Of a stretch of DNA of 64,000 bases, positions 9,045 to 32,390 are shown one piece after another; position 1 is the stretch's first letter; every line of letters begins with the position of its first letter. The position numbers were made by a program, and so were the translations under genes. The stretch covers positions 64,001 through 128,000 of the forward strand of contig CAWKDB010000010.1 in assembly GCA_963848295.1 (NCBI GenBank). Reading direction: 5' to 3'. The stretch comes from an uncultured delta proteobacterium (GTDB lineage: Bacteria > Myxococcota_A > Polyangia > Haliangiales > Haliangiaceae). The notes under the pieces were generated by a model, which was not told where the DNA came from, ran no database searches, and saw only the letters and a program-made list of their open reading frames with translations.

Positions 9045-10067
9045 ATGCATGATCCCGGCGCTGATAACGGATCTGCTGGAAATCTAGACGGAATTCGCGA
9101 AGGGCTGCCCCGCTGGGGGATGGTCAAAGGCGTCGCGACCGGGGCGGTCATCGAGGTCCCGGCGATCGCAGGCGCGGTCTGGTTGCTCGCACGTGTCGGC
9201 GTGGGCAATCGCGCGGAGCCGTACCTGGCCGATCTGAGGCTGACCGCGGTGTTCGCCGGGGTCGCCGCGCTCGTCACCGCGGCCGGGCTCGGCCGGCTCG
9301 CTGCGGTCGCGTCGCTCGACGGCGGCCGCCGGCACGCGATGACAGTCACCGCGCGAGCTCATGCCGCGGCGTCGGCCGCACTCGTGCTGATCGCTGCGAT
9401 CCCGCACGGCGAGCTGCCCGATCACGCGCTCGGCTATGTACCGTTCTTGCTCGGCGGCGCGGTCGTCGGCGCGCTGTGCGGCGCGGTGATCGGCGCGATA
9501 TGCGGCGGCGCGGCGCCGGTGGGAATCGCCGATGTCGTCGCGCTCGCCCGCCGGCCTAGCGAAGCGTTGCGCCAGCTCCTCGATCCGGATGACCTCGTGA
9601 AGATCGGCACGGCGCTGCGCGAACGCACGAGCCACTTGTTGAGCGGGATGTTCGAGCCCGGCCCCAAGCCGCCGAGCGAGCACGACGAAAAGCCACCGCC
9701 CGACGACAAGTCGGGCGAACGCCCGACGCGTAGCGCCGCCGAAGGCGGAGCGAAGGTCGACGACAAGTCGGGCGAACGCCCGACGCGTAGCGCCGCCGAA
9801 GGCGGAGCGAAGGTCGACGACAAGTCGGGCGAACGCCCGACGCGTAGCGCCGCCGAAGGCGGAGCGAAGGTAGACGACAAGTCGGGCGAACGCCCGACGC
9901 GTAGCGCCGCCGAAGGCGGAGCGAAGGTCGACGACAAGTCGGGCGAACGCCCGACGCGTAGCGCCGCCGAAGGCGGAGCGAAGGTAGACGACAAGTCGGG
10001 CGAACGCCCGACGCGTAGCGCCGCCGAAGGCGGAGCGAAGGTAGACGACAAGGTCGAGCCGCCGTGA
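9045..10067 (+). CDS. Multi-pass membrane protein with C-terminal 19-aa tandem repeats
   Basis: About 5 hydrophobic segments, then (DDKSGERPTRSAAEGGAKV)x6. Confidence 0.75.
   Translation: MHDPGADNGSAGNLDGIREGLPRWGMVKGVATGAVIEVPAIAGAVWLLARVGVGNRAEPYLADLRLTAVFAGVAALVTAAGLGRLAAVASLDGGRRHAMTVTARAHAAASAALVLIAAIPHGELPDHALGYVPFLLGGAVVGALCGAVIGAICGGAAPVGIADVVALARRPSEALRQLLDPDDLVKIGTALRERTSHLLSGMFEPGPKPPSEHDEKPPPDDKSGERPTRSAAEGGAKVDDKSGERPTRSAAEGGAKVDDKSGERPTRSAAEGGAKVDDKSGERPTRSAAEGGAKVDDKSGERPTRSAAEGGAKVDDKSGERPTRSAAEGGAKVDDKVEPP
9702..10052 (+). repeat. Tandem array of 6 x 57 bp plus 9 bp; member of the two-hairpin coding repeat family
   Basis: Unit gacgacaagtcgggcgaacgcccgacgcgtagcgccgccgaaggcggagcgaaggt(c/a) starts at 9702, 9759, 9816, 9873, 9930, 9987; units differ only by GTC/GTA. 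Confidence 0.97.
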
Positions 10068-10921
10068 CGAACGAGCAGTCCGATCGAACCGCGCCGCCCT
10101 TCGCCGGCGCGGCTGGTCGGGGGCGAGCCTCGACCGTCGAGGTACGCACGCTCGCGATCGCGTTGCTCGCTTCGCTGCTGCTGTGGAACCTGCCGTTCGG
10201 CGGCGTCGTGCTCTACCCGTTCAAGCTGCTCGCGACCTGGCTACACGAGCTGTCGCATGGTCTCGCGATGATCGTGACCGGCGCGGGGCTCGACCACGTC
10301 GAGATCTATCGCGACACGAGTGGGCTGGCGTATCCGAGCGCCGGCACCGGCGCGTTCGGCAGCGCCGTGATCGCGGCGGCCGGCTACATGGGCACGCCTC
10401 TGTGGGGCGCGCTGCTGCTCGTGATCACGCCGACGCCGCGCGCGGCGCGAACCGCGTTGCTCGTGCTCGCCGGGTTGTTGCTGCTGACCGTCGTCACCGT
10501 GATCACGCCGACCCCGCAGGGGGACGTGCTCGGCCGGTGGGCGCTCGTCGCGATCGCCGCGGCGTTCGCGGTCGCCGCGACCGTCGTACCGGCGCGCTGG
10601 CGGCTCCACGTCGCGCACTTCGTCGCCGCGCAGGCCTGCGTCAACGCGCTACTCGACATCCGCGTGTTGCTCCGGCCATCGCAGGTCGTCGGCGGCAACG
10701 TGACGAACGCGTCGGACGCGCAGAACATGGCGGCGGCGACGTTCGGCACGACCGCGACCTGGGCCGTGTGGACGTGGGCGATCGTGTGGCTCCTGTGGTC
10801 GCTCGCGGTGCTGTTCGTCGCGCTGCGGCTCGTGCGCGCTCGAGCGACGCCGAACGACGATGGCGAGGACCGTCAGCGCGACGAGGCGATCGCGACCGAA
10901 CCGAGCAGTCCACCGAAATAG
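10064..10921 (+). CDS. M50B-family membrane metallopeptidase
   Basis: LATWLHELSHG zinc motif, AAAGY, SDA motif, multiple TM segments. Confidence 0.85.
   Translation: MTNEQSDRTAPPFAGAAGRGRASTVEVRTLAIALLASLLLWNLPFGGVVLYPFKLLATWLHELSHGLAMIVTGAGLDHVEIYRDTSGLAYPSAGTGAFGSAVIAAAGYMGTPLWGALLLVITPTPRAARTALLVLAGLLLLTVVTVITPTPQGDVLGRWALVAIAAAFAVAATVVPARWRLHVAHFVAAQACVNALLDIRVLLRPSQVVGGNVTNASDAQNMAAATFGTTATWAVWTWAIVWLLWSLAVLFVALRLVRARATPNDDGEDRQRDEAIATEPSSPPK
10081..10136 (-). repeat. Dispersed two-hairpin repeat copy, antisense within the M50 gene N-terminus
   Basis: Reverse complement matches 24668-24723 at 48/56 nt without gaps; flanks CCGA (10080) and TCGA (10137) are 57 bp apart. Confidence 0.85.
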
Positions 10922-13050
10922 CCTGGTGCGGCGCGAACGATCGTCTCGGGTGCGTACAGCGTCGCGAGCGCCACGCCGTTGCCGAGCGGTCGGGCGGCGA
11001 CGATCATGCGATAGCGCTGGCGATTGCCGAACGCGTCGGGGAGCTGCGCGACGAGCTCGCTACCGTGCCACGGCGCTGGCAAGGTGACGAGTGGATCGCC
11101 GGCCGCCTCGGTGGTCTCGAACTTGCGCTCGCGCGCTTCGCCCGGCGCACCCTTGGTCAAAGCGGCGAGCGGGCCACGGAGGTCGACCGAGCCCGGGGTC
11201 CAGCCGAAGCGACCCAACACCCACACATCGGGCGCGTAGATCTCGGTACCGGCGACGATCCACCCGGTCGGGGCGACGACGCTGAGGTCGCCAACCGTGC
11301 GGCGCGCGGTGGGCAGCGACGCGTAGCTCTCTGCGACCGACGTCCTCACGACGAGCACCGCGGTGGCGGCGACCGCGGCGGCGAACGCCAGCGCGATGAG
11401 CGGAGCGAGATAGCGCGACACGATCGCCCAGCGCGCATGCGGGGTCAGGGCGGCGCCCGCGAGCGCACCGACCACGAGGCCCGCGCCGTGCGCCCAGTTG
11501 TCGACCATCGGGTACAACATGCCGAACCCGACGAGCGCGACCAGCACGACGCCGATCCGCGCCCACATCCCGCGGCGCATCGCGGTGCGATACAGCCGGC
11601 GATACAGCGTGAGCTCGACGAACCCCGCGCCGAGCAACCCGAAGATCGCGCCCGACGCCCCGGCGGTGACGTCGATATCGCCGTAGTAGCTCGCGATCGA
11701 GCCGGCGATCCCGGCGAGCGCGAAGATCGCGATCGTGCGCACCGCGCCGAACATCTCCTCCGCGAAGCGGCCGACGAACCACAGCGCGATCGCGTTGAGC
11801 ACGAGGTGCACCGTGCCGACGTGGATGAAGATCGCCGCGACGATCCGCCACGGCTCCGCCGGGACGAAGCCATGCACGATCGCCCCGCCGCGAGTCAACG
11901 CGCCGAGATCGCTACCGTCGCCGATAAACAGCGAGATGCACGCGGCAGCGGCGATCATGATCGCGAGCAACGCCTGGGTCGCCCACGGTCCTTGTACGCG
12001 CGGCGGCCGGATCACCTTCGGCGCGGGCGCGGCCTCGACTCTCGCGACGATCTCTGTTGCCGCGCTGCCGAGCTCGGCGCGGCGAGCCGTCGGGAGCTCG
12101 GCGAGCGCTTTTTCGATCATGACGCGCGGCCGGCCACGCGATCGCGAGCGCGCCTTGTCGTAGGCGTCGCGGGCGGCGGGCTCGTCACCCCTGCGCTCGT
12201 GAGCGACCGCGAGCCAATACGTCCGCGCCGCCGCCGTCATGTGGCGCGAGCGCTTCGGCATGACGAGCGCTTCGACCGCATCGACCCGACCGGCGAGCGC
12301 GAGGAACATCAAGCGCCCGCGATGCAGCCACACCGCGGCGTCTTGCCGGCCCTCGCAGACATCTTCGAGTCGGGCGAGCATCGTCGCCGCGCGATCGAGA
12401 TCGCCTTTGCGGCCGTAAGCGCCGAGCAACTCGATCCACACCGGTGGTGCGATGCCGAGCGCGCGGCGCAGCGCGTTGCCGCCGTCGTCGGGAGGCGTCG
12501 CGCCGAACAGGTTTGCTTCAGCGTGAGCGATCGCTTCGTCCCAGCGATACGCGGCGAGGTACAACATCGCGATCCGCTCGTCGATCGCGAGCTTGGCTTC
12601 GGCCGGCGCGCGCTGCTTCGCCATCGTCAACGCGTCGACCGTCCGCTCGATCTTGCCGTCGCGGATCTCGCGCATCGCACCGAGCATGGCCTTCTCGTCG
12701 CCGGCGCCCGAGCCGGGTGCGAGCACATCGGCGACGTCGAGCAAGCGCGCGGCAACGCCGAAATGCTCGGCCGCCGCGAACCGGCGCGCGAGCGTGCGCA
12801 GCACGGGCCCCACGACGAACAAGCAGGCGCCCGCACCGACGCCGATCGCACCCGCGATGCCGAGCAGCTCGCTCTCGGTGTGGCGCCCGATCCAGCCGAG
12901 CGTCGACAGCGCCGCGGACGCCACGAGCATCAGCCCGAACGTGGGCGTGCCCTGCGGCTGCCGGCGGATGAAGAACCAGCCCCAGTAGCCGCCCGCGATC
13001 GCGACCGACATGAGCGCGAGCTCGTAGAGCAGCGACGCTTCGGAAGTCAT
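10873..13050 (-). CDS. Rhomboid-family intramembrane serine protease with N-terminal helical/TPR region
   Basis: PWRIVAAIFIHVG..HLVLN, GASGAIFG, DNWAHGAGL motifs. Confidence 0.85.
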   Translation of the reverse strand: MTSEASLLYELALMSVAIAGGYWGWFFIRRQPQGTPTFGLMLVASAALSTLGWIGRHTESELLGIAGAIGVGAGACLFVVGPVLRTLARRFAAAEHFGVAARLLDVADVLAPGSGAGDEKAMLGAMREIRDGKIERTVDALTMAKQRAPAEAKLAIDERIAMLYLAAYRWDEAIAHAEANLFGATPPDDGGNALRRALGIAPPVWIELLGAYGRKGDLDRAATMLARLEDVCEGRQDAAVWLHRGRLMFLALAGRVDAVEALVMPKRSRHMTAAARTYWLAVAHERRGDEPAARDAYDKARSRSRGRPRVMIEKALAELPTARRAELGSAATEIVARVEAAPAPKVIRPPRVQGPWATQALLAIMIAAAACISLFIGDGSDLGALTRGGAIVHGFVPAEPWRIVAAIFIHVGTVHLVLNAIALWFVGRFAEEMFGAVRTIAIFALAGIAGSIASYYGDIDVTAGASGAIFGLLGAGFVELTLYRRLYRTAMRRGMWARIGVVLVALVGFGMLYPMVDNWAHGAGLVVGALAGAALTPHARWAIVSRYLAPLIALAFAAAVAATAVLVVRTSVAESYASLPTARRTVGDLSVVAPTGWIVAGTEIYAPDVWVLGRFGWTPGSVDLRGPLAALTKGAPGEARERKFETTEAAGDPLVTLPAPWHGSELVAQLPDAFGNRQRYRMIVAARPLGNGVALATLYAPETIVRAAPGYFGGLLGSVAIASSR

Positions 13051-13065
13051 CGGGCCAAACCTAGA

Positions 13066-14061
13066 TCAACCCGTCTGCTCGACGAACTGGCCGATGCGGC
13101 GGAACTTCTGGTAGCGACGCTCGATGAGCTCGCTCGGCGTTAGCTGCGATAAATCTTTGAGGTGCGCCTTGATCGACTGCCGCAACTTCGCTGCGGTCAG
13201 CGCCGCGTTGCGGTGCGCGCCGCCGGGCGCCTCCGGAATGATCTCGTCGCAGATGCCGAGCTCGAGCAGGTCGGGTGCGGTGAGCTTGAGCTGCGAGGCC
13301 GCCTCCGCGATCTTCGCCGGGTCGCGCCACAGGATCGAAGCGCAGCCTTCGGGTGAGATCACCGAGTAGATCGAGTACTCGAGCATCAGGATCTTGTCGG
13401 TCACGCCGAGCGCGAGCGCGCCACCCGAGCCGCCTTCGCCAATCACGACCGAGATCAGCGGGCATTCGAGGCTCGCCATCACCTGCAGCGCCTTCGCGAT
13501 CGCCTCGGCCTGGCCGCGCTCTTCGGCGCCGAGCCCGGGATACGCACCTGGCGTATCGATGAAGCACAGGATCGGCCGGCGGAACCGCGAGGCCATCCGC
13601 ATCAACCGCGTGGCCTTGCGGTAACCCTCGGGCCGCGCCATCCCGAAGTTGCGATGCATGTTGTCCTTCGTGTTGCGGCCCTTCTGGTGGCCGAGCACGA
13701 GCACTTCCCATTCGTCGAATTGAGCGAGTCCGCCGATGATCGCCGGATCGTCGCGGAAGCTGCGATCGCCGTGCAGCTCGATGAAGTCGTCCATCAGCAG
13801 GCCGACGTAGTCCATCATGTACGGCCGCCCGGGGTGGCGAGCGAGCTGGACCTTCTGCTGCGCGGACAGGTCGGCGAACACTTCTCGTTGCAGCTTGCGC
13901 GCCTTCTGCTCGAGCTTGCGGATCTCGGACGAGAAGTCGACCGACTCGGTCGAGAGGTGATGCAGCTCGTGGATCTTGCGCTCGAGCTCGATGATCGGCC
14001 GCTCGAACTCGAGGATCATCCGGTCGGTGAGCAGCGGAGGCGGTTCGGTCGTCGTCGACAT
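13066..14061 (-). CDS. accA: Acetyl-CoA carboxylase carboxyltransferase subunit alpha
   Basis: LARHPGRP, ELHGDR, PEGYRKA, FIDTPGAYPG.GAEERGQ, GEGGSGGAL, YSVISPEG. Confidence 0.97.
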   Translation of the reverse strand: MSTTTEPPPLLTDRMILEFERPIIELERKIHELHHLSTESVDFSSEIRKLEQKARKLQREVFADLSAQQKVQLARHPGRPYMMDYVGLLMDDFIELHGDRSFRDDPAIIGGLAQFDEWEVLVLGHQKGRNTKDNMHRNFGMARPEGYRKATRLMRMASRFRRPILCFIDTPGAYPGLGAEERGQAEAIAKALQVMASLECPLISVVIGEGGSGGALALGVTDKILMLEYSIYSVISPEGCASILWRDPAKIAEAASQLKLTAPDLLELGICDEIIPEAPGGAHRNAALTAAKLRQSIKAHLKDLSQLTPSELIERRYQKFRRIGQFVEQTG

Positions 14062-14067
14062 CGCGTT

Positions 14068-14979
14068 CTAGCGCCCTGCTAGGTACCGCCCAAGCGCGTC
14101 GGGGTCAACGGCCGCCGGGTCCGGGTACCAAGCGATGGCGGGATCAGGACGGTACCAAGATAGCTGACGCCGGGCGTAATGCCGTGAATTCCTTTTGACC
14201 AGCTCGATCGCGCGCGTGCGGTCGAGCCGCCCCTCCGCCACCGCGTGCAGCTCGGCGTAGCCGATCGCCTGCTGGCTGCGCAGGGGCGGCGTGTAACCCC
14301 GCGCGCGCAACGCGCCGACCTCGGCCTCGAGCCCGGCGGCGAGCATCGCGTCGACCCGCGCGTCGATCGCGGCATACAACGCCTCGCGCGGCGGCGATAG
14401 ACCCACGAGTTGCGCCGGATAGCGCGGCGGCTGCTTGCGATGGTCGTGGCGCGCCTGGTGGGCGCTCATCGGCTCGCCGGTGAGTCGGAACACCTCGATC
14501 GCGCGGATCATCCGCTTGCCGTCGTGCGGATCGATCTTCGCGGCGGCCGCGGGATCGACGCGCACGAGCTCGGCGTGCAGCTCGGCGGTCGGCAGCTGCG
14601 CCAGCTCGGCGCGCACCTCGGGAGACGCCGGCGGGCCCTCGAACAGGCCGAGCAGGAGCGCGCGGACGTACAGGCCGGTGCCGCCGCATACGATCGCCGG
14701 CACGTCGCGCACCGCGAGACTCTCGATCGCGGCGTCGGCGAGCGCGATGAACCGCGCCGCCGTCATCTCGTCGTCGGGATGCGCCACGTCGAGCAGATGG
14801 TGCGGCACCCGCGCGCGCTCGTCCGCGGTCGCCTTGCCGGTGCCGATGTCCATGCCGACGTAGACTTGCTGACTGTCGGCCGACACGACCTCGCCGCCGA
14901 TCTTCTCGGCGAGCGCGAGGGACAGGCGCGTCTTGCCCGCGCCGGTCGGCCCGACGATCACGACGAGGCGCGGCGCCAT
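14068..14979 (-). CDS. miaA: tRNA dimethylallyltransferase
   Basis: GPTGAGKT, SADSQQVY.GMDIGTGK, GGTGLY, HYARRQLSW; start ATG 14979. Confidence 0.96.
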   Translation of the reverse strand: MAPRLVVIVGPTGAGKTRLSLALAEKIGGEVVSADSQQVYVGMDIGTGKATADERARVPHHLLDVAHPDDEMTAARFIALADAAIESLAVRDVPAIVCGGTGLYVRALLLGLFEGPPASPEVRAELAQLPTAELHAELVRVDPAAAAKIDPHDGKRMIRAIEVFRLTGEPMSAHQARHDHRKQPPRYPAQLVGLSPPREALYAAIDARVDAMLAAGLEAEVGALRARGYTPPLRSQQAIGYAELHAVAEGRLDRTRAIELVKRNSRHYARRQLSWYRPDPAIAWYPDPAAVDPDALGRYLAGR

Positions 14980-15112
14980 CCGCGCATTGTGGCACGGCGG
15001 CGAGAACCGCGGTTCGCCGTGGCCCCTCGCGCGCCGACTGTCAGATCGCGACGCTCGACCGGCTTGCGGGCCGAGCGTAGACCGACCGCGCACGTCGCGC
15101 GTTTCATCGCAC

Positions 15113-15589
15113 ATGCGCTTCCTCGCGTTCGCCTTGCCGCTGTGCCTCGTCACGTCGTTCGCGCATGCGTCACCGGCGTTCACATTCGCACAGCTGCTCC
15201 GGCGCGCCGACACGGTCGCGGTCGTGACGCTGACCCACCACGACGCGAAGCACGTCACCCTGTCGCAGACGACGGTCGTGCGCGGCGCGTTCGGCAAGGG
15301 CATCGTGTTGAAGGTCATCGGCGAGATCGCGCCGCCGGCTGACGTCACGACGTTCGTGGTGCTGTCCCAGCTCGATCCGCACATCGGCGCGCCGGAGCCG
15401 GTGGTGCGCATCGGCCAAGGCCTCGAGGGCCAAGCCGGCTATCTCGGGTTCTTGCTCTACCCGGTGCGGACGATCGGTGGCCGTGCGCAGATCGACCCGG
15501 CGTTCCTGATCAAGGCGGACGGCGCGATCGCGATCGACCAGCTTCCCGCGATCGCGAAGCGCGCGCCGTTTCGCCCGATCGGCGGCTAG
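15113..15589 (+). CDS. Secreted hypothetical protein
   Basis: Signal peptide MRFLAFALPLCLVTSFAHA. Confidence 0.6.
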   Translation: MRFLAFALPLCLVTSFAHASPAFTFAQLLRRADTVAVVTLTHHDAKHVTLSQTTVVRGAFGKGIVLKVIGEIAPPADVTTFVVLSQLDPHIGAPEPVVRIGQGLEGQAGYLGFLLYPVRTIGGRAQIDPAFLIKADGAIAIDQLPAIAKRAPFRPIGG

Positions 15590-17577
15590 CGCCCGAACCG
15601 GCGCGCGATCTCGGCGAGCGGCAGGCGCAGCATCAACGGGCGGCCGTGCGGGTTCGGCGCGTCGCCGACGCCGTCGAGCGCGCGCAGCAGCGCCTCGGTT
15701 TCGCCCGCCGACAGTCGATCGCCCGCGCGCACGACCGAGTGACACGCAATCTCGGCGAGCGCACTCTCGAGTTGCTCGGCGTCGCTCGGCGCACCTTCTT
15801 CGGCCCACCGGGCGAGCAGCGCACGCAGCAGCTCCGCCGGATCGCCGTGGCGGATCCCCGCCGGCACCGCGAGCAACGCGAGCGAGCCATCGCCGCCGAG
15901 ATCGGTCTCGAAGCCGACCTGCGCGAGCACGCCGCGCAGATCACTCGCGAGCTTCGCGAGCTCCGGCGCGACATCGATCGTCGCCGGGAACAGCATGCGC
16001 TGCATGCCGACCGCATGATCGGCATCGGCGGCCTTGAGCCGAGCGAGCTCGACGAGCTCGTGCGCGACGTGCTGATCGATCAGCACGAGCCCGGCGCCGG
16101 CCTCGCACACGAGGTATGTGAGATCCAGCTGGCCGAGGTAGCGCAGCTGCGCGAAGTAGCCCGGCTCGAGCTCGGCGCGCTCGGCCGCGGCATGGTCGAC
16201 CGGCCCGCTACCGAACGCGAGGGCCGGCGCCCGGTCGGCGACCGCCGCGGGCCGCGCGTAGGCGGCGCGCGCGTACGCCGCGGCTTCAGCAGCGCGCGAG
16301 CTCCGGCCGCGATCGCGGATGCCTTGGGCCCACTCCCGCGGCCCCGGGCCAGGAGTAAACCCGAGTTGCGCCTGCGCACCGCCGGACGCCCAACCGCGCT
16401 CGCGCGCGTGCTCAAGCTGGGCGCCGTAGCGCTGCGCTAACGGCGTCGCGACTCCGCCGTCGGGTAACGCGGGCGGCTGGACGCTCGTGATCGCGGTCAT
16501 CATCACCGGCGCCGCCGCATCGCTTCGCCACCCTGCCCGCGCGACGCCTGCTTGCACGACGTGGCGCACCGCCGCTGCGACCGCAGCCGCGTCGGCAAAT
16601 CGGACCTCCGACTTCTGCGGATGGACGTTGATATCGACCGCGCCAGCGGGAACATCGACGATCGCGATCGCGAGCGGATAGCGGCCGCGAGGCACGAGCT
16701 CGCCATAGCCCATCGCGATCGCGTGCAACAACCCACGGTCTTTCACCGGCCGGCGCCCGACGAACAGCTGAACGCCCCGCGCCGTCGTCTGCGCGAGATC
16801 CGGCGCACCGAGCAACGCGTGGACGCGGGTCGCACCGTCTTCACCTGATACCTCGACGAGCCGCGCGCTGACTCGCGGTCCGAGCAGCGCGCGCGCACGA
16901 GCCAACCGATCGCGATCCGGCGGGAGGTCGAGCGCGACTCGCCCGTCGTACGCGAGCTTGAGGTGAAGCTCGGGATGCGCCATCGCGACGCGCGCGACCA
17001 GGTCGGTGACGTGGGCCGCTTCGGTCGCCTCGCCGCGCAAGAACTTGAGCCGAGCCGGCACCGCGCGAAACAGCTCGTGGACCTCGACCGTCGTACCGAC
17101 CGGGGCGCCGGCCGCGCTGACGTCTGCGACCCGCCCCGCATCGACCGTGATGCGCGTCGCCGCGAGCTCGCCGGCGACCCGGGTGGTCAGCACGAGCCGC
17201 GCGACGCTCGCGATCGCCGGCAGCGCCTCGCCGCGAAACCCGAGCGTCGTCAACCCCCACAGGTCGTCGACACTGCGCAGCTTCGAGGTCGCGTGGCGCT
17301 CGAGTGCGAGCACCGCGTCGACCGCAGACATGCCACAGCCGTCGTCGACGACGCGGATCACGCTGCGGCCACCGCCGACGACCTCGACCGCGATCGTGCG
17401 CGCGCCGGCGTCGATCGCGTTGTCGACGAGCTCCTTGACCACCGATGCCGGCCGCTCGATGACCTCGCCCGCGGCGATCTGGTCGATCACGGTCGAGGGC
17501 AAGAGCTCGATCGTGGGGACCTGTGCCCGACGATCAGCACCGCCGGAGGGCGGTGCGGTTGGATCGAACGCGGGCAT
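15586..17577 (-). CDS. mutL: DNA mismatch repair protein MutL
   Basis: QIAAGEVIERPASVVKELVDNAIDAGA, HATSK, GFRGEAL, DINVHPQKSEVRF, DQHVAHE, ACH, PHGRP. Confidence 0.96.
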   Translation of the reverse strand: MPAFDPTAPPSGGADRRAQVPTIELLPSTVIDQIAAGEVIERPASVVKELVDNAIDAGARTIAVEVVGGGRSVIRVVDDGCGMSAVDAVLALERHATSKLRSVDDLWGLTTLGFRGEALPAIASVARLVLTTRVAGELAATRITVDAGRVADVSAAGAPVGTTVEVHELFRAVPARLKFLRGEATEAAHVTDLVARVAMAHPELHLKLAYDGRVALDLPPDRDRLARARALLGPRVSARLVEVSGEDGATRVHALLGAPDLAQTTARGVQLFVGRRPVKDRGLLHAIAMGYGELVPRGRYPLAIAIVDVPAGAVDINVHPQKSEVRFADAAAVAAAVRHVVQAGVARAGWRSDAAAPVMMTAITSVQPPALPDGGVATPLAQRYGAQLEHARERGWASGGAQAQLGFTPGPGPREWAQGIRDRGRSSRAAEAAAYARAAYARPAAVADRAPALAFGSGPVDHAAAERAELEPGYFAQLRYLGQLDLTYLVCEAGAGLVLIDQHVAHELVELARLKAADADHAVGMQRMLFPATIDVAPELAKLASDLRGVLAQVGFETDLGGDGSLALLAVPAGIRHGDPAELLRALLARWAEEGAPSDAEQLESALAEIACHSVVRAGDRLSAGETEALLRALDGVGDAPNPHGRPLMLRLPLAEIARRFGR
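17511..17567 (+). repeat. Dispersed two-hairpin repeat copy, antisense within the mutL N-terminus
   Basis: 41/56 gapless match to 24668-24723; TCGA at 17507 and 17564 (57 bp period); stem gcaccgcc/ggcggtgc. Confidence 0.8.
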
Positions 17578-17641
17578 AGCGCTGGCGTACCACGGCGATC
17601 TGACGTGGAGCCGGCACTCCCGCTGGTGTATAGAAGCCTCG

Positions 17642-19774: not shown

Positions 19775-19847
19775 TCCCCGGAGGTCGTCACCGCACCCAC
19801 ATCGGGTGGCCTTGTGTTTGGTGCCCGAACGAGTCAGCCTGATATGG

Positions 19848-21474: not shown

Positions 21475-21478
<4 letters not shown>
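20792..21478 (+). CDS. Cys-rich lipoprotein with InlB B-repeat-like domains
   Basis: Lipobox TAGC; GSGTGMVS...ITLTPAAG..SAFFGWGQGC pattern. Confidence 0.65.
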
Positions 21479-22884
<1,406 letters not shown>

Positions 22885-22980
22885 ATCGAGGCCGCTCGGG
22901 ATTTGCGCACGCGTGGGTCATCTTGCCTGGCCGCGCGATATCGCGGGCGCGTTGGAACGGCCGTGTTATCGTGGACGCAA

Positions 22981-23523: not shown

Positions 23524-23599
23524 ACGAGCTCCCCGCGTCCGGCGATCGCCGGGACGCTACGAACAGGCGCGGCGATCCGTCACTTGCTATGATCCAGAC

Positions 23600-24523
23600 G
23601 TGCATCGCGCTCGCATCGCCGTGGTCGCCACGCTCGGCGTGGTCGCAGCCGCCGGCGTGTGGGCGCTCGCGGCCGGTCCGCCCGCAGCCGCGCCCGCACC
23701 CATCGACGCGCCGAATCCGCTGACGATCGCGGTCAACGGCGGTCGCCACGTCCGGATCGACGGGCCGCGCGGTGCGATCCACGTGTGGATTCCGCCGAGC
23801 TTCCACTCCGATACCGGCGCGACGATCATCTACTTGCACGGCTACTACGACGACGCCGACTCGTCGTGGGTCGGCCATCACCTGCCCGAGCAGTTCGCGA
23901 TGAGCGCGCTCGACGCGATGTTCATCGTGCCGGAGGCGCCGGTCGCGGCAAAGACGCCGATCAACTATCCGAACCTCAGCGAGCTGCTGCGCATCGTCGA
24001 GGACAAGACCGGCGTGCAACGCGGGATGGCGTTGACCGTGGTGGTCGGCCACTCCGGTGCGTTTCGCACGATCGAGAGCTGGCTCGACGAGCCACTCGTC
24101 GATCAGCTCGTGATGATCGACTCGATGTACGCGGACGAAGAACAGATCGAGGCGTGGCTGCGTGCGTCGCCGCGCCATCGGCTGATCACGGTCGGCGAGG
24201 ATACGTTGCAGTGGAACGAGCAGTTCCTGCGCGACATCCCCGACACCGTCGTCGTCGATCGCGTGCCGCCGACCTATGACACGTGGCCGCCCGAGGCGCG
24301 GACCGCGCGCTCGGTCTACGTCCGCGCGCAGTTCGCGCACATGCCGCTCGTCACCGATGGCATCGTGCTGCCGGCGCTGCTCCGGCTCTTGCCCGTCGAG
24401 CTGCTCGGCGACGAGCCGTGGCAACAGCCGCTCGGCGCATTGCCGTCGAACGAGCTGGCTCCCGACGATGGTGGCGTCACCGGCTCGGGCTCCGGATCCG
24501 CGCTGCCGGCGCCGGCGAACTAG
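23600..24523 (+). CDS. Exported alpha/beta-hydrolase-like protein
   Basis: IIYLHGY and VVGHSGA nucleophile-elbow-like motif; N-terminal signal or TM segment. Confidence 0.6.
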   Translation: MHRARIAVVATLGVVAAAGVWALAAGPPAAAPAPIDAPNPLTIAVNGGRHVRIDGPRGAIHVWIPPSFHSDTGATIIYLHGYYDDADSSWVGHHLPEQFAMSALDAMFIVPEAPVAAKTPINYPNLSELLRIVEDKTGVQRGMALTVVVGHSGAFRTIESWLDEPLVDQLVMIDSMYADEEQIEAWLRASPRHRLITVGEDTLQWNEQFLRDIPDTVVVDRVPPTYDTWPPEARTARSVYVRAQFAHMPLVTDGIVLPALLRLLPVELLGDEPWQQPLGALPSNELAPDDGGVTGSGSGSALPAPAN

Positions 24524-24527
24524 CGCC

Positions 24528-26075
24528 ATGCAGCGCGCGGGCTTCGCGATCGGCGCGGCGCTGATCGCGGTCGGCTTCGCGCTCCCGCACCTGCGCCGCG
24601 TGTTGATCGCCGACGTCGTGACCTGGGACGCCGAACCGAGCGAGCCAGCGCAGCTGCCGGTGGGCGCCGGTCGGGGCCTGCCCCCGGCCGGCAGCGCCGC
24701 CGAAGGGCGGCGCGGTTCAATCGACGGTCCGGGGCTGGCGCCGACCGCCCGCACGCGCGTGCTCTTGATCGACGGGCTCGCTGCCGACGTCGCCGCGACC
24801 CTCCCGGCGTGGACCGAGACGTGCGCGCGCGGCGTCGCGGTGACCGTCGACGTCGGGTTCCCGACCGTGTCGCTGCCGGTCGAGGTCGCGCTGTGGTCGG
24901 GGCTCACCCAGCAGCAGACCGGCGTCGTCGGCCATCAGGGGCGGCCGCTCGTGCCGCCGCTCGATCGCCGCGCGATCCCGGCGCAGGTCGCGGGCAGCCG
25001 TGCGCTCGCGGAGAACCACGGTTACATCGTGCGCTCGCTCGGGTTCGCGACCGCGGAGCCGGCCGCCGCCGCCGATGGCCTCGGCGACGCCGATCTCGAG
25101 CATTGGGCGGCGCAGTTCGAGCCGCGCGCGATCGCTGCGGTCGCGAGTGATGCGGCGCTGGTGTTCGTCCACATCTTGCGCGTCGATAACGCCGGCCATC
25201 GCTCCGGCAAGGACTCGGATCAGTACCGCGACGCCGCACAGCGAGCCGATGCGCTGCTCGCGAGGCTCGTCGCCGCGGCGGGCAGCGACGCGCGCTGGTT
25301 CTTGCTGTCCGACCACGGCCACCTGCCGGGCGGCGGTCACGGCGGCGCGGAGCGCGTGATCCGTCAGGTCGCCGGCTGCATTGTCGGCCCCGGGCTCGCG
25401 CCGAACGCAGCGCATCCGGTGATCCACGTCGTCGACATCGCGCGCGCGATCGCCGATTCGGTCGGCGCGAAGCTCGACCCGGCGTCGCGCGGTCGCCCGC
25501 TGTCGGTCGCGTTGCGGGTTCCGCTCGTCGATGACGAGGCGCTGCCGAGTCAACCGATCGTGCCCGCCGCGCTCGCGATCGTGATCGTCGTGCTCGGGGC
25601 GGCGGCGATGGCGTGGGCCAGCGCGCGGTGGTGGCTCGCCGCGTGGTGGTGGCTGCTCGCGTGCGCCGCGCTCGTCGTCGTCCGCGGCGTCCCGACGCTA
25701 TCGAGGCCGATGATCTACTCGCCGGAAGGCCGCACGATGTGGCTCGCGTGGTCGCCGCTGCTCGCGGTCGCGTGCGTGATGACGTACGTCGCGCTCGGGC
25801 GCACGACGCTGTGGCGCGCGGTCACCGCGCAGCTCGCGCTACCGTTCGCGGCGGCCGCGGCGGCGATCACGGCGTGCGGCGGCTGGCCCGCGGTGTTCGG
25901 TGCCGAGGTCGCGCCGGTCGTGCCGCACTACACCGCGTGGATGTCGCCGCTCGTGCTCATGGCTGCGCAGGGGGCGGCGGCGGTCGGCCTTGCTGTTCTC
26001 GGAAAGTCTTGCCGGCAGGCGATCGATCGACGCGGACGTCCGGAATCGCCGCGTACATCGAGAGCAGGCGCTTGA
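24528..26075 (+). CDS. Membrane alkaline-phosphatase-superfamily protein
   Basis: LLIDGL, PTVS, VDNAGH, LSDHG metal motifs; C-terminal TM segments. Confidence 0.75.
   Translation: MQRAGFAIGAALIAVGFALPHLRRVLIADVVTWDAEPSEPAQLPVGAGRGLPPAGSAAEGRRGSIDGPGLAPTARTRVLLIDGLAADVAATLPAWTETCARGVAVTVDVGFPTVSLPVEVALWSGLTQQQTGVVGHQGRPLVPPLDRRAIPAQVAGSRALAENHGYIVRSLGFATAEPAAAADGLGDADLEHWAAQFEPRAIAAVASDAALVFVHILRVDNAGHRSGKDSDQYRDAAQRADALLARLVAAAGSDARWFLLSDHGHLPGGGHGGAERVIRQVAGCIVGPGLAPNAAHPVIHVVDIARAIADSVGAKLDPASRGRPLSVALRVPLVDDEALPSQPIVPAALAIVIVVLGAAAMAWASARWWLAAWWWLLACAALVVVRGVPTLSRPMIYSPEGRTMWLAWSPLLAVACVMTYVALGRTTLWRAVTAQLALPFAAAAAAITACGGWPAVFGAEVAPVVPHYTAWMSPLVLMAAQGAAAVGLAVLGKSCRQAIDRRGRPESPRTSRAGA
24668..24724 (+). 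repeat. Dispersed two-hairpin repeat copy, sense, encoding GRGLPPAGSAAEGRRGSID
   Basis: Hairpin 1 ggtcgggg/ccccggcc; GCAG; hairpin 2 gcgccgcc-gaag-ggcggcgc; ends in TCGA. Confidence 0.85.
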
Positions 26076-28101: not shown

Positions 28102-28230
28102 CGGTCGATCTGACCACGGCGTGGCTCGCCGTGGCAACTAGCCTACGCCTCCGTACCGGAGGGCCTTCGGACCAGGGATTCGGCCATCCTTGCTGCGCCG
28201 GACCGCCGAGCGATCGATCGTCCTGGGACC

Positions 28231-28785
28231 TCAGGCCTTCGGCGGATACTTCTGGAGCTTGCGCTGCAGGCTGCGGCGGTGAATTCCGAGCCGGCGCGCG
28301 GCCTCCGAGATATTGCCGCCCGCGTCGGACAGCACGCGGTTGATGTGCTCCCACTCGGCGCGAGCGAGCGACGGGGCGCGATAATCGCCGGAGTCGGGCG
28401 GCGGCGGCTCGAGCGGCGGCGCTTCACCTCGGGCGAATGCGCCGATGATGTCGTCGGCATCGGCCGGCTTCGACAGGTAGTAGGTCGCGCCGAGCCGCAC
28501 CGCGTCGATCGCGGTCGCGATGCTGCCATACCCCGTCAACACGACGATCTTGGTCGCCGGGTCGATCTCGCGCAGCGCCTTGACCAGCTCGAGCCCGCTC
28601 TTGCCCGGCATCTTGAGGTCGACGACCGCGAGCTCCGGCGAATCGCTGGCCGCAGCCGCCACGCCGGCGTCGTAGTCACCGCCGGTCCGGACGTCATAGC
28701 CGCGGTCGGTGAACGCGCGGCCGAGCCGGGTGCGATAGACCTCATCGTCGTCGACGATCAGGATCGATAGCTCTTGCTCGCCCAT
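28231..28785 (-). CDS. regA: RegA/PrrA-family response regulator
   Basis: Receiver domain plus SLARAEWEHINRVL..GGNISEAARRLGIHRRSLQRKL. Confidence 0.9.
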   Translation of the reverse strand: MGEQELSILIVDDDEVYRTRLGRAFTDRGYDVRTGGDYDAGVAAAASDSPELAVVDLKMPGKSGLELVKALREIDPATKIVVLTGYGSIATAIDAVRLGATYYLSKPADADDIIGAFARGEAPPLEPPPPDSGDYRAPSLARAEWEHINRVLSDAGGNISEAARRLGIHRRSLQRKLQKYPPKA

Positions 28786-28862
28786 GGCCGTTGGATACCA
28801 CCACCTGTGAGATCGATGCACGCATAGTGAACGCCCCTGCACGACCGCGACATCGCTGGTGT

Positions 28863-30149
28863 TCACGGGATCGATCGCGCCGACCTAGCGGCATCGGTCG
28901 GCAGCTCGACGCGGACCTCGGTGCCGTGCGCGCCCGAATCGATCCGCAGCGTGCCGCCGACGCCCTCGATCACCGCGCGCGCGAGGAACAGCCCGAGCCC
29001 CATGCCGCGGCCCGGTGCCTTCGTCGTGTAGAACGGCTCGCCGATCCGCGCCATGACGTCGGCCGGGATCCCGGGCCCGCGGTCGCGAATGGCGACATCG
29101 AGCACGTCGCCGCGGCGGCCAGCAACGACGACGACCGCGGCGGCCGCCGGCGAGGCATCTTGCGCGTTCGTCACGAGCGACCGCAACGCTTGGCTCACCG
29201 CGCGAGGCGGCAAGCGCAACGGTGATTGCCCGACATCGTCGCTGAGCTCGCGCACCACGCTCGGCGATTCGCGCACGCCCACGAACGCCTCGTCGAGCAG
29301 CTCGCGCACGGTGCAAGACGCGACGTTCTCCCCGACCGTCCCGGCGCCCTGCGCCATCTGCTCGAGGATCGTCCGGCACCGGCCGACCTGCTCGCGGATC
29401 AACCGCGCATCCGCGGCGAGCCCGGCCTGATCGCCGAGCGCGTGCTCGAGCTCCTTCGCGGCGAGTGCGACCGTGCCGAGCGGCGTCGATAGCTCGTGGG
29501 CGGCACCGGCGGCCATCGTCGCGAGCGAGGCGAGTCGCTCTTGGCGCGCGGCGAGGCTACGCGCGAACGTCAGCTCGGTCTCCCGCGTCGCGAGCGCGCC
29601 GGTGATCCGCAGCAAGAAATACACGACGAACGCGGACGCGACCCCGAGCGCGACCCACATGCCGATCATCCGGCTGTCGTCGGGAATCACGAGCGGTTCG
29701 TGCGACAGCAGCAACAACCCGAAGCCGAGGAACGACAGGCCGACCAGCATCCACGTCCACCGCGCGCGCATCAGCACCGCGGCGAGCGCGATCTGCACGA
29801 GATAGAGAAAGCTGAACGGATTGTTGGGGCCGCCGGTGAAGTAGAGCAGCGCGGTGAGCAGCGCGATGTCGAGCGTCATCACCCCGGCGAGCTGCCACTC
29901 CGCAACCTCGCGGTGCGCGATCGCGTCCCCGCGACCGAAGAACCGCCCGCGATCACCGAAGTAATAGAGCTCGATCACGAGGTTCGACACCAGGCCGATG
30001 CCGATCACTGCGAACAGCGGAGCGATCGGGAGCCTGCCCCCGAGCAGGACCTGGCCGACCAAGACGGTCGCAGCCTGGCCCGCGAGCTCGGCCCAGCGCA
30101 GCCGCGCGAGCCACTGAATATTGACCCAGTTGCGTGCAGGAATGCTCAC
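28863..30149 (-). CDS. regB: RegB/PrrB-family sensor histidine kinase
   Basis: TGGPNNPF quinone-site-like motif, AAGAAHELSTPL H-box, RCRTIL cysteine, GMGLGLF. Confidence 0.88.
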   Translation of the reverse strand: MSIPARNWVNIQWLARLRWAELAGQAATVLVGQVLLGGRLPIAPLFAVIGIGLVSNLVIELYYFGDRGRFFGRGDAIAHREVAEWQLAGVMTLDIALLTALLYFTGGPNNPFSFLYLVQIALAAVLMRARWTWMLVGLSFLGFGLLLLSHEPLVIPDDSRMIGMWVALGVASAFVVYFLLRITGALATRETELTFARSLAARQERLASLATMAAGAAHELSTPLGTVALAAKELEHALGDQAGLAADARLIREQVGRCRTILEQMAQGAGTVGENVASCTVRELLDEAFVGVRESPSVVRELSDDVGQSPLRLPPRAVSQALRSLVTNAQDASPAAAAVVVVAGRRGDVLDVAIRDRGPGIPADVMARIGEPFYTTKAPGRGMGLGLFLARAVIEGVGGTLRIDSGAHGTEVRVELPTDAARSARSIP

Positions 30150-30171
30150 GCCGCACCCTGCACGGCTAACC

Positions 30172-31050
30172 CTACTTGGCCATCGTCGGCTCGAGCGACT
30201 TCAGTCCCTTGTCCAGCACCCACTGCTGGTAGTACTGCGCCGCCGGGGTCCCGGACGCGATCCGGTCGTTCGCCTTCTTCAGCTCCTCGTCGATCAGCGT
30301 GGTGAAGTTCTCGATCGGCATCGCGCCCGACATGAACCGGCCGTTGATGAAGAACGACGGGGTCGCGGCGACGCCGAGCTGCTGCAGGTCTTTCTGATCC
30401 TTCTGGATCAGGGCGTTGCATTCCTTCATGTCGGCTTTGAACTTGTCGGCGTTCATCCCGAGGTCGGTCGCGAACCCGAGGACGATCGGGCAACCCGCCT
30501 CGCTGTCCCAGCACCGCTTGGCCGGGCCACCGCCTTCGCCCGGTGCGTCCTTGTCGAACTGACGGCCCTTGAACCCCTTGTCCCACAGCGCGTTGTCCAT
30601 CTGATCGAACTTGCCCTGCCGGCTCGCGGCGCACGACGCCAGCGCGCCCGCGGTCGCGACCTGCGGATGGACGACGTACTGCTTGTAGACGATGCGGAGG
30701 TCGTTGCCGTACTTCTTCTTCAGCTCTTCCATCGTGTCGCGCACCCTCTCGCAGTACGGACAGGCGTAGTCGTAGGCCTTGACGAGCGTGACCTTGGCAT
30801 CGGCCGGGCCGTCGAACGGGTCGCCGTCGATCGGCATCGCGTAGGTCTTCGCGCGATCGGGCTCCGGGCGCTGGGGCCGCTGCTGGCCGCCGGCGCCGCG
30901 GCCGCCGTTCGCGATCAACTGGTCGAGCTTCTTGTCGACGCGCTCGAGTAGCGCGTGATCGGCCTTGAGCTGATCGTGGTCGGCCTCGTTCCCGTCGGCG
31001 GTACACGCGACCAACGACAACGCGGCAATGGTCATAACTAGTTTGTTCAT
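30172..31050 (-). CDS. DsbA-family thioredoxin lipoprotein
   Basis: Lipobox LVAC, DYACPYC, GVAATPSFFING. Confidence 0.88.
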   Translation of the reverse strand: MNKLVMTIAALSLVACTADGNEADHDQLKADHALLERVDKKLDQLIANGGRGAGGQQRPQRPEPDRAKTYAMPIDGDPFDGPADAKVTLVKAYDYACPYCERVRDTMEELKKKYGNDLRIVYKQYVVHPQVATAGALASCAASRQGKFDQMDNALWDKGFKGRQFDKDAPGEGGGPAKRCWDSEAGCPIVLGFATDLGMNADKFKADMKECNALIQKDQKDLQQLGVAATPSFFINGRFMSGAMPIENFTTLIDEELKKANDRIASGTPAAQYYQQWVLDKGLKSLEPTMAK

Positions 31051-32390
31051 CGCACGACTCCTTCGACTTGCTGACAAGTGTTCACGGACGGGGTCCCGGC
31101 GTTCATCAGCTCCGGGGTTGTAGCCTCAGGCTGGTCGCAATTGCAACACAGCGGTTCGTCGAGCAAAGACTCGAGCTCGGCCGCAGCATACGGATCGAGC
31201 GTCGATACGAGCTCGTCCTGGCGGGCGCGCAGCTGCGCTTGCAGCTCGCACGCTTCATCGCGCGACAACACCCCGTCGCCATCGAGGTCGGCCTCGGGGT
31301 GCGCGAGCATGAGCTTCGCGGCGAGCTGCGGGGTGTACCGACACGCGATGCGAGCGGCGGACGCGCCGGCGGTACGGGCGCCGCCGAGCACGACCGCGAC
31401 CCACGCAGCGAGCGCGAGCGTGTAGCCGAGGCCCGAGCGACGTGCCGCAGGCGGCCCTAGCACGGCGCGGACGCGGGCGTCGAGCGCGCGCGGCATCGCG
31501 AGCGCGAGCGAGCCATCGATCCACCCGCGCCGGCGTTCGGCGGCGCTGCCGGCGAGGGTTCCCTCGCCGTCGAGGTGGAGCGCGGCCATCCGCACGAGCA
31601 ACCGCGCGTAGGTCGGACGCGGCAACTCGCCCGCCTCCACGGCCCAGGCATCGCACGCGGCCTCGCGTGCGAGCTCGAGCCGGCGACTCGCGAGCAGCGC
31701 GACCGGCCACCAGAAGAACGCGGCGCACGCGACGAGCTGAAATGCGCGACCGATCGCATCGCGGCGCCGCACGTGCGCGAGCTCGTGCAACAGCGCCGCG
31801 CGCAGCAACGCGGGCTCGGCGACGAGCACCGCCGGAACGACGATCGTCGAGTGCCACCCGCCGACGACATGCGGCCCCGATGCCGCGACGACCAGCCGCG
31901 GTACGGGCAACTTCGCGCGCCGAGCGAGCTCTGCGAGCAGCGCGAGGGCAGCAAACGGAGCTGGCTTCGCGAGCCGCGCGGCGCGGGCGAGCCGGTGCGA
32001 TCGGACGAGCGCGCGGGTCAGCGACAGCGCGGCGCCGACGAGCCAGATCGTCGCGACCGCGAGGTAACCGACGGCGGGCCACGCACGAGCCGCGGGGAGC
32101 GGTGCGGCCAGCGTCGCCGGCAACGCGCTCGGCGTCGCACCGGCGCCGTGATGAAACAGCCCGGCGACGAGGTCGGACAGCGACCATGGCAGCGCCGGGC
32201 CCCATGGCAGCGCGAACTTTACGATCACGACGAGCCAGATCGCGGCTTGCCAGCTCGGGCGCAGCCGGCCGGCACGCGCGATCGCGAGCGCGAGCAGCGC
32301 GACGATCGTGCCCTGCACCGCGATCATGCCGAGCGTCGCGAGCGTGGTCTTCGCGACCGCACCGGCGGAGACGAGCGTCGCGACCGTCAC
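31047..32390 (-). CDS. BlaR1-like M56 metallopeptidase with EF-hand-like, Cys-rich C-terminus
   Basis: LLHELAHVRRRD, FFWWP, REAACDAWA; DLDGDGVLSRDE; CCNC; GTG start overlaps the blaI-like stop. Confidence 0.85.
   Translation of the reverse strand: MTVATLVSAGAVAKTTLATLGMIAVQGTIVALLALAIARAGRLRPSWQAAIWLVVIVKFALPWGPALPWSLSDLVAGLFHHGAGATPSALPATLAAPLPAARAWPAVGYLAVATIWLVGAALSLTRALVRSHRLARAARLAKPAPFAALALLAELARRAKLPVPRLVVAASGPHVVGGWHSTIVVPAVLVAEPALLRAALLHELAHVRRRDAIGRAFQLVACAAFFWWPVALLASRRLELAREAACDAWAVEAGELPRPTYARLLVRMAALHLDGEGTLAGSAAERRRGWIDGSLALAMPRALDARVRAVLGPPAARRSGLGYTLALAAWVAVVLGGARTAGASAARIACRYTPQLAAKLMLAHPEADLDGDGVLSRDEACELQAQLRARQDELVSTLDPYAAAELESLLDEPLCCNCDQPEATTPELMNAGTPSVNTCQQVEGVVR
31516..31569 (-). 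repeat. Dispersed two-hairpin repeat copy, 54 bp, sense in the M56 gene, encoding GEGTLAGSAAERRRGWID
   Basis: Hairpin ggcgaggg-aa-ccctcgcc; 31513-31553 matches 24687-24727 at 35/41; TCGA at both ends (31516, 31570). Confidence 0.8.

What the first reader, a model, noticed from the sequence alone, without database searches (positions are those of the whole stretch)
9702..31573. A 54-57 bp two-hairpin, TCGA-flanked repeat inserted in-frame in five different proteins
Seen: copies at 9702-10052 (x6), 10081-10136, 17511-17567, 24668-24724 and 31516-31569. All share hairpin 1, a GTAG/GCAG-like tetramer, hairpin 2 (GCGCCGCC-GAAG-GGCGGCGC type) and a TCGA-like end. Against 24668-24723, the 10081 copy matches 48/56 and the 17511 copy 41/56, without gaps. 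TCGA flanks both sides at 17507/17564 and 31516/31570; CCGA/TCGA flanks 10080/10137 and 9700/9757. The 24668 copy has TCGA on the right only. Periods are multiples of 3 (57, 54) and every copy found is inside a CDS. Sense copies give SAAE peptides (TRSAAEGGAKVD, AGSAAEGRRGSID, AGSAAERRRGWID); antisense copies give TAPP peptides. Stems covary (gtcgggcg/cgcccgac versus ggcgaggg/ccctcgcc; a G-C to A-T pair in hairpin 2 of the mutL copy). Known: GTAG plus hairpin is the REP/RAYT substrate layout, and Rickettsia palindromic elements insert into coding sequence. Inference: a non-autonomous, structure-conserved mobile element that duplicates TCGA and adds 18-19 aa peptides to proteins. No mobilising enzyme is in this window.
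Basis: partly seen in the sequence, partly recalled or inferred. Interest (0 to 1): 0.85.

Follow-up and report, generated by a model that had tools for sequence, protein, structure and literature searches.

The report
Jumping hairpin repeat inserting into proteins
A 57-base, two-hairpin DNA repeat occurs about 200 times in this soil myxobacterium, mostly inside genes, where it adds 18-19 amino acids and is often missing at the same spot in a sister genome; it likely moves as single-stranded DNA and likely picks its landing site by pairing with its own internal four-letter tag, using an enzyme not yet identified.

Summary
The repeat is mobile: 199 copies at 160 loci in this genome (reversed-genome control 0), 120 loci inside called genes. 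A 90%-identical sister genome (G100) lacks all four single window copies (57, 57, 54, 54 nt). Of 73 comparable G100 copies, 33 are absent here by exactly 57 nt. Both stems covary, and hairpin-2 loops fit the DNA-stable cGNABg motif (108/117) rather than GNRA (1/117).

The 'TCGA duplication' is only partly right. A CGA-like core is shared by both ends and the empty site, but end variants are uncorrelated. GCAG/TCAG copies land at C-G-A (19/32 empty sites) and GTAG copies at C-A-A (5/6). This matches the published TnpA-REP guide rule, though it rests on one subfamily switch. No mobiliser was found: 0 of 123 Y1 loci carry a copy.

Best reading: a non-autonomous, REP-like single-stranded element of Kofleriaceae (29/90 genus genomes), tolerated in genes because its length is a multiple of three. 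Intragenic REPs and Rickettsia RPEs are precedents. The scan had not reported this repeat before.

The parts
9702..10052 (+). Tandem array of six 57-nt GTAG-subfamily (B) units; end core CAAG at 9707-9710 and 10049-10052; first guide GTAG at 9730-9733; encodes six DKSGERPTRSAAEGGAKVD-type peptides near the C-terminus of the 9045 ORF
   Evidence: shared with G100 (at least 2 units, then an assembly gap)
10080..10140 (-). Single A-subfamily copy (guide decayed to GCCG), 57 nt net, near the N-terminus of a Peptidase_M50B gene; antisense TAPP peptide
   Evidence: clean 57-nt absence in G100
17507..17567 (+). Single A-subfamily copy (guide TCAG at 17534-17537) in the N-terminal extension of MutL (gene on minus strand)
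   Evidence: 54-nt absence in G100; MutL relatives show no such extension
24664..24724 (+). Single A-subfamily copy (guide GCAG at 24691-24694) in a phosphodiesterase-family gene; sense SAAE peptide
   Evidence: clean 57-nt absence in G100
31516..31573 (-). 54-nt variant with a shorter hairpin 1 (guide GCAG) in a Peptidase_M56 gene; sense SAAE peptide
   Evidence: 54-nt absence in G100
9045..10067 (+). Host ORF 1 (membrane protein, no Pfam family over cut-off)
10064..10921 (+). Host ORF 2, Peptidase_M50B
15586..17577 (-). Host ORF 3, MutL
24276..26075 (+). Host ORF 4, phosphodiesterase/metalloenzyme family (start uncertain; own caller gives 24528)
31047..32753 (-). Host ORF 5, Peptidase_M56 (start uncertain; own caller gives 32390)

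Best explanation
This is a mobile 54-60 bp two-hairpin repeat that sits in frame inside many genes; it likely moves as folded single-stranded DNA, is likely cut and joined by an unlinked Y1 HUH (RAYT/TnpA-REP-like) enzyme, and likely chooses its target by pairing with its own internal tetranucleotide. Shown: presence/absence at orthologous sites with 57-nt (sometimes 54 or 60) differences; two covarying stems; one short core at empty sites that also stands at both element ends; that core differs with the tetranucleotide (GCAG/TCAG goes with C-G-A, GTAG with C-A-A). Inferred: in the folded strand the 5' core C-N-A-N' lies against tetranucleotide positions 31, 29, 28 and 27; the enzyme cuts within that core at both ends, releases a 57-nt unit and joins it into a matching core elsewhere, so both ends carry the core without a true target duplication. 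Inferred: copies persist in genes because 57 is 19 codons and most frames are open; the peptides are tolerated passengers, later eroded in frame or multiplied into tandem arrays.
For: Mobility. Polarity for MutL: no extension in relatives. Structure: 91.1% of cells paired, 124 compensatory cells, 0 of 500 shuffles reach this, slid controls 29-55%; top mutual-information pairs are stem pairs. DNA-type loop: cGNABg in 108 of 117, GNRA in 1 of 117 (the motif is named in a reference title in PMC3201870). Target switch: CAA in 5 of 6 GTAG empty sites and 0 of 32 GCAG/TCAG empty sites, CGA in 19 of 32; 3' tails hold CAA in 21 of 30 GTAG vs 13 of 205 GCAG/TCAG loci, background 7%. Published rule: TnpA-Mb picks CA through T2 and G4 of GTAG and is retargeted by guide changes (PMC8266576 section 20); applied to GCAG it predicts CG, near-invariant at both A ends (83/85 left; 76/85 C and 82/85 G right). 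A27 goes with T in the 3' flank (20 of 36) vs G27 (13 of 104), p=8e-7, seen separately in both genomes. RAYT-like Y1 genes exist in G000 (9) and 87 of 90 genus genomes.
Against: No REPtron: 0 of 123 Y1 loci from the genus carry a copy within about 1.5 kb, and no mobile-element family recurs near 314 copy loci. Y1 genes are just as common in genomes without the repeat, and the three G000 proteins tested score under the NF047646 cut-off. No leading/lagging bias (77 vs 82 loci, tallied), unlike IS608. The GCAG-to-GTAG contrast may be a single evolutionary event, and copies are related, so p-values overstate. In the 60-nt variants of other genomes the fifth core base follows the element's own position 5, not position 27 (read by eye), so simple end-target identity explains that part as well as guide pairing does. 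G31 also pairs with C50 in 70 of 71 copies, so it may not be free to act as guide. The cut point is unresolved: at positions 2-4 informative empty sites follow the left end 11 to 1, which does not fit a cut at C|G. No two G000 loci share identical positions 5-57, so present activity is not shown.
Confidence: 0.58

Rival explanations
1. No dedicated transposase: stable single-stranded hairpin fragments are copied into sites with 3-6 bases of microhomology to their own ends by host repair or template switching, and the target switch merely follows the element's end sequence.
For: No linked enzyme. The 3' flank resembles the element's 5' end for about 3 bases beyond the core (0.57, 0.45, 0.39 vs background 0.30, 0.33, 0.30). 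At least one tandem array carries flank-derived bases in its inner units, as slippage would give (C11:700845). No replichore bias.
Against: Unit length is fixed: 33 of 73 comparable sites differ by exactly 57 nt. The unpaired CAG and the loop bases are conserved beyond pairing needs. The CG/CA choice matches an enzyme rule measured independently.
Confidence: 0.17
2. A different HUH enzyme, such as an IS91-family Y2 transposase or a relaxase, moves the unit.
For: G000 has two Y2_Tnp matches. IS91 is recalled to target CAAG/GAAC, like the GTAG subfamily core; this is recalled only, and one search found no paper to check it.
Against: Y2 was not found in G100, G078, G054, G043 or G061, the repeat-richest relatives, 86-94% complete. 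No copy lies near 29 Y2 loci or the G000 locus.
Confidence: 0.08
3. A short structured RNA is reverse-transcribed and inserted by a group II intron or retron RT.
For: G000 has 3 RVT_1 matches over cut-off. Retron-like repeats in Nannocystis are recalled, not checked.
Against: Loops fit DNA-stable, not GNRA, motifs. No copy lies beside the RT loci (best E 0.74). No Rfam match.
Confidence: 0.07
4. A MITE moved by a DDE transposase with a 4-bp TCGA target-site duplication.
For: TCGA stands on both sides in 28 of 85 full-length single copies, and empty sites hold one core.
Against: No terminal inverted repeat under any choice of boundary (sequence). End variants are uncorrelated; left T is 52/85 and right T 78/85. 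The GTAG subfamily uses CAA.
Confidence: 0.07
5. Conserved protein motif or chance GC-rich similarity.
For: The genome is 68% GC and low in complexity.
Against: Reversed-genome control 0; copies are read in several frames and on both strands; orthologues lack the segment.
Confidence: 0.01

Closest known systems
GTAG REPs with TnpA-REP/RAYT (Ton-Hoang 2012, PMC3333891; Corneloup 2021, PMC8266576)
   Same: Tetranucleotide (GTAG or GCAG/TCAG) at the 5' foot of a short GC-rich hairpin; many dispersed and tandem copies; the end and target dinucleotide fits the T2/G4 cross-pairing rule; the same site 5' and 3' of the hairpin.
   Different: The tetranucleotide is internal, after a second hairpin; the unit is a single direct element of fixed length, not an inverted REP pair; mostly intragenic; CG or CA rather than the usual CT; no flanked tnpA found.
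Intragenic GTAG/CGTC REPs (Di Nocera 2013, PMC3733652; e.g. Opitutus terrae)
   Same: In-frame 20-30 aa inserts in housekeeping and repair genes.
   Different: There most REPs are intergenic; here 120-144 of 160 loci are coding, close to the coding share of target sites. The passages read hold no mention of myxobacteria.
Rickettsia palindromic elements (RPE; review PMC2229807)
   Same: Palindromic repeat fused in frame into conserved proteins, apparently near neutral.
   Different: RPEs are 105-146 bp long stem-loops with terminal inverted repeats and unknown target rule; this unit is 54-60 bp, has two short hairpins, no TIR, and a defined target core.
IS200/IS605 ends (IS608 type) and class 3 TnpA-Y1 hairpins (Quentin 2018, PMC6006769)
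   Same: Guide tetranucleotide 5' of a hairpin about 10 nt from the 3' end; class 3 hairpins have a CnGA foot and high copy number.
   Different: The IS608 four-base guide/cleavage pairing (rule recalled) does not fit either strand; no lagging-strand bias; the aligned Y1 proteins carry a YxxNN motif, not the class 3 Y---Q. The class 3 sequences in Table S1 were not seen.

Membership tests
GTAG-type REP / REPtron | GT[AG]G tetranucleotide at the 5' foot of a hairpin | tested here: inconclusive
   Met by the 35 B hits (mostly GTAG); the 164 A hits carry GCAG/TCAG, and in both the tag is internal.
GTAG-type REP / REPtron | High copy number, dispersed, structure conserved | tested here: met
   199 copies, covarying stems.
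GTAG-type REP / REPtron | Predominantly extragenic, often inverted pairs (REPIN/BIME) | tested here: not met
   10 of 160 loci intergenic; 38 of 39 adjacent pairs are direct, 1 inverted.
GTAG-type REP / REPtron | A tnpA-REP gene flanked by the cognate repeat | tested here: not met
   0 of 123 Y1 loci examined, out of more than 800 matches in the genus; genomes incomplete.
GTAG-type REP / REPtron | Strand-specific cleavage by TnpA-REP directed by the tetranucleotide | not testable with these tools
   Only the genomic footprint (CG vs CA cores) was tested.
MITE (DDE-type) | Terminal inverted repeats | tested here: not met
   Consensus ends are not inverted beyond about 3 bases.
MITE (DDE-type) | Target-site duplication copied from the target | tested here: not met
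   Left and right variants uncorrelated at positions 1-4; position 5 vs 62 only 57% identical.
IS200/IS605 non-autonomous derivative | An autonomous element with the same left and right ends | tested here: not met
   Half-element scans of G000 found eroded copies and no separated end pair around a gene; genome 85% complete.
IS200/IS605 non-autonomous derivative | Bias to the lagging-strand template | tested here: not met
   77 vs 82 loci by GC-skew strand.
Rickettsia palindromic element | In-frame insertion into conserved proteins | tested here: met
   Clean 19-aa inserts in ThyA (G100) and PlsX (G000) against PDB chains.
Rickettsia palindromic element | 105-146 bp single long stem-loop with TIR; sequence kinship to RPE | tested here: not met
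   54-60 bp, two hairpins; sequence kinship itself was not tested.

The most novel reading that the evidence does not exclude
A self-guided 57-nt single-stranded DNA insertion unit: its internal four-letter tag programs its own genomic target, a one-base change in the tag has retargeted a natural subfamily from CGA to CAA, and it has become a lineage-wide source of 19-residue loop insertions in hundreds of proteins, moved by an unlinked and possibly undescribed HUH-type enzyme.
Probability: 0.4. Interest if true: 0.86.

Novelty: new variant of a known kind. Interest (0 to 1): 0.72.

Why it matters
How REP-like repeats spread is described as unresolved in the 2021 TnpA-REP paper. This family gives dozens of filled/empty site pairs with a fixed unit length and a natural guide/target switch, so the guide model can be tested on a minimal substrate. 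It also shows a repeat that barely avoids coding DNA: two genomes about 90% identical differ by many 19-residue inserts, some inside conserved domains (ThyA, PlsX, RecG, ArgRS), which makes it a measurable source of protein length variation. A retargetable 57-nt integrating unit would also interest HUH-based genome engineering.

Tried and rejected
Public runs: four contig sets laid on window 12001-32000 showed no joint skipping a copy among the 15 joints listed (96 not shown); coverage was thin, and one X1 contig (17405-17777) carries the MutL copy unchanged and may be the source sample. Not used as evidence.

Mobiliser hunts that led nowhere: Y1 in G000 and 15 repeat-bearing relatives plus a genus census (scans 54, 83, 104); a local Y1 profile against all six frames of G000 found only further members and fragments of the same family; Y2; RT; GIY-YIG in 5 genomes; clustering of 948 proteins near 314 copy loci gave only common kinases, regulators and transporters; half-element scans. 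IS110, TnpB, relaxase and integrase families were not searched by profile.

No match in viral contigs. Genome-collection hits outside Kofleriaceae/Deltaproteobacteria titles (Streptomyces, Burkholderiales and others) lack hairpin 1 and the end core and were rejected as chance.

My early idea that position 4 covaries with 28 was not significant (p=0.13). Replichore bias was rejected. The literature search for IS91 ends gave nothing usable. No covariance model, structure prediction or complex prediction was run.
Full report
Observation. The window is G000:C10:64001-128000 of a 7.78-Mb, 68% GC genome, 85% complete. Hosts in the window are an unnamed membrane protein, Peptidase_M50B, MutL, a phosphodiesterase-family protein and Peptidase_M56.

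Genome census. Two profiles give 164 (subfamily A) and 35 (subfamily B) hits at E<=0.01, with 0 and 0 in the reversed genome. These are 199 copies at 160 loci; 14 loci are clusters, with a 57-nt direct spacing in 37 of 39 adjacent pairs. By my own gene caller, 120 loci lie inside genes, 24 in open 5' extensions, 6 overlap partly and 10 are intergenic. About 85% of TCGA sites lie in well-scoring called genes (86,844 of 102,157), so genes are neither sought nor avoided. The frame spread of 105 A loci broadly follows the codon phase of CGA, with an excess of the antisense TAPP frame (57 vs 38.6 expected, p=0.008). Eroded copies add to the count.

Anatomy, numbering A from the left TCGA as 1-61. 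Stem 1 pairs 3-12 with 20-29; G/T-C-A-G stands at 28-31; stem 2 pairs 31-38 with 43-50; a tail leads to GATCGA. On 71 aligned copies (68 from G100, 3 from the window), 91.1% of cells pair and 124 are compensatory; 0 of 500 shuffles reach either value and slid controls pair 29-55%. Pair 4:28 is mostly a mismatch (55 of 71). Relatedness inflates the shuffle test. The hairpin-2 loop is cGNABg in 108 of 117 distinct copies and GNRA in 1; C14 and G17 are kept in 105. cGNABg, gCNNGc and GNA loops are named as stable DNA loops in PMC3201870 (passages and a reference title seen). B has c-GAAC-g and c-GAA-g loops (sequence). I infer that the forward strand, as DNA, is the structured species; shared descent could account for part of this.

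Mobility. G100 is about 90% identical. It lacks the window copies at 10081 and 24668 by 57 nt and at 17511 and 31516 by 54 nt, and shares the 9702 array. I fetched loci for about 90 of the 121 pattern hits in G100. They gave 95 matches: 18 had no orthologue, 4 had short flanks, and 73 were comparable. Of these, 35 differ by exactly 57 nt (2 are tandem self-matches, leaving 33), 9 by 0, and 29 by other lengths. At sites inside called genes, 40 differences are non-zero multiples of three and 1 is not. MutL relatives show no comparable extension before the conserved IAAGEV block, so that copy is a gain. ThyA in G100 and PlsX in G000 carry inserts of about 19 residues against solved structures. 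Of 34 sampled hosts (every second of 68 eligible), the insert lies inside a Pfam-matched domain in 8, at a truncated domain edge in 3, outside in 18, and 5 had no match. No two G000 loci share positions 5-57, so most insertions postdate the split from G100 but current activity is not shown. The A core pattern occurs in 27 of 90 genus genomes and the B pattern in 4, 29 in union, with reversed-pattern controls 0; units of 51-60 nt with varied hairpin 1 and constant hairpin 2 occur.

Ends and target. Of 32 A empty sites (one misregistered site dropped), 19 read CGA at positions 2-4, 12 read TCGA and none CAA; the genomes differ by 10%, and position 3 is usually a synonymous site. Left and right tetramer variants are uncorrelated, so this is a shared core, not a copied duplication. 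Of 9 comparable B loci, 3 are shared and 6 empty; 5 of the 6 read CAAG or CAAC. Across all Kofleriaceae loci held, 3' tails contain CAA in 21 of 30 GTAG loci and 13 of 205 GCAG/TCAG loci (background 7%), and CGA in 151 of 205 (background 39%). In A, the first flank base after the right core tracks the stem pair 5:27 (A27 with T 20 of 36, G27 with T 13 of 104; p=0.006 in G000 and 2.5e-5 in G100). Both subfamilies allow the same foot pairing: C with G31, the second base with 29, A opposite 28, the fourth base with 27. Corneloup 2021 (passages and section 20 read) showed that TnpA-Mb selects CA through T2 and G4 of GTAG and can be retargeted; extended to GCAG (my inference) this gives CG.

Against this reading. 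It rests on one subfamily switch. In 60-nt variants the fifth base follows position 5 rather than 27 (by eye). G31 is usually paired in stem 2. Informative empty sites favour the left end 11 to 1 at positions 2-4 and split 4 to 4 at position 1, so the cut is placed only within positions 1-5. There is no strand bias by replichore (77 vs 82). Above all, no enzyme is linked: 0 of 123 Y1 loci, 0 of 29 Y2 loci, no RT or GIY-YIG locus, and no recurrent mobile family near 314 copy loci. Y1 genes occur in 87 of 90 genus genomes, with or without the repeat.

Comparison. It works like a REP handled by a Y1 HUH enzyme, but fails REP membership on location and on a flanked tnpA, and fails MITE membership on TIRs and duplication. 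In-frame palindromic inserts are known from intragenic REPs (PMC3733652, passages and section 15) and RPEs (PMC2229807, passages). Excision and tandem-amplification models for BIMEs are in PMC3333891 (passages). Class 3 TnpA-Y1 hairpins with a CnGA foot are described in PMC6006769 (passages and section 12); a supplement search for five taxon names found nothing, and its Table S1 sequences were not seen and may bear on kinship. I found no description of this family in paper searches (listings only), Rfam or the scan's index; subscription journals are not covered.

Verdict. A real mobile repeat family, a new variant of the REP/RPE kind, with unusually clear filled/empty pairs and a natural tag/target switch. 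The element's mobility is near certain; the Y1 guide mechanism is about 0.6. Interest 0.72.

Noticed in passing
G000 C10/C2, loci L001-L009: A RAYT-like Y1 family with 9 Pfam matches and further fragments, with ragged ends. L004 is bracketed by inverted GTAG-starting 27-nt arms whose first 10 bases on one side match the B-subfamily core; other copies do not keep those bases.
   Followed up: partly
L214 (G100:C41:11028-14285) vs G000 C10:1513424-1513428: A roughly 1.64-kb Y1 element present in G100 and absent from G000, inserted after a CT dinucleotide and with GTAG near both ends, so this RAYT-like gene moves as a unit.
   Followed up: partly
L205, L206, L207 (G000 C11:721418, C2:795818, C10:2116505): A multi-copy reverse transcriptase element (98% identical copies) with many 200-550 bp non-coding derivatives, one beside a Y1 gene; looks like a group II intron family.
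   Followed up: no
G000 C10:51970-54550, about 10 kb before the window: Two divergent IS91-like Y2 transposase ORFs with a small HTH gene, next to a multi-copy element.
   Followed up: partly
L262 (G000 C11:700334-702295): Arginyl-tRNA synthetase carries five tandem copies (about 95 aa) that split its catalytic domain; the inner units have flank-derived bases that break the stem foot, suggesting slippage.
   Followed up: partly
window 24722-24750: The flank after the 24668 copy, present also in G100, resembles an eroded hairpin 1, so the new copy may have landed at an older one.
   Followed up: no
G000 genome-wide: Loci cluster modestly: 44 neighbour gaps under 10 kb vs 31.5 expected (p=0.005); several genes hold two or three separate copies.
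   Followed up: partly
L297, L320: Two full elements in a genome titled Acidobacteriota; misbinning or transfer was not resolved.
   Followed up: no
G000 C10:3847820, C2:1055999, C2:1473709 and others: Shared copies shortened by in-frame deletions (6-36 nt) relative to G100, showing erosion that keeps the frame.
   Followed up: partly
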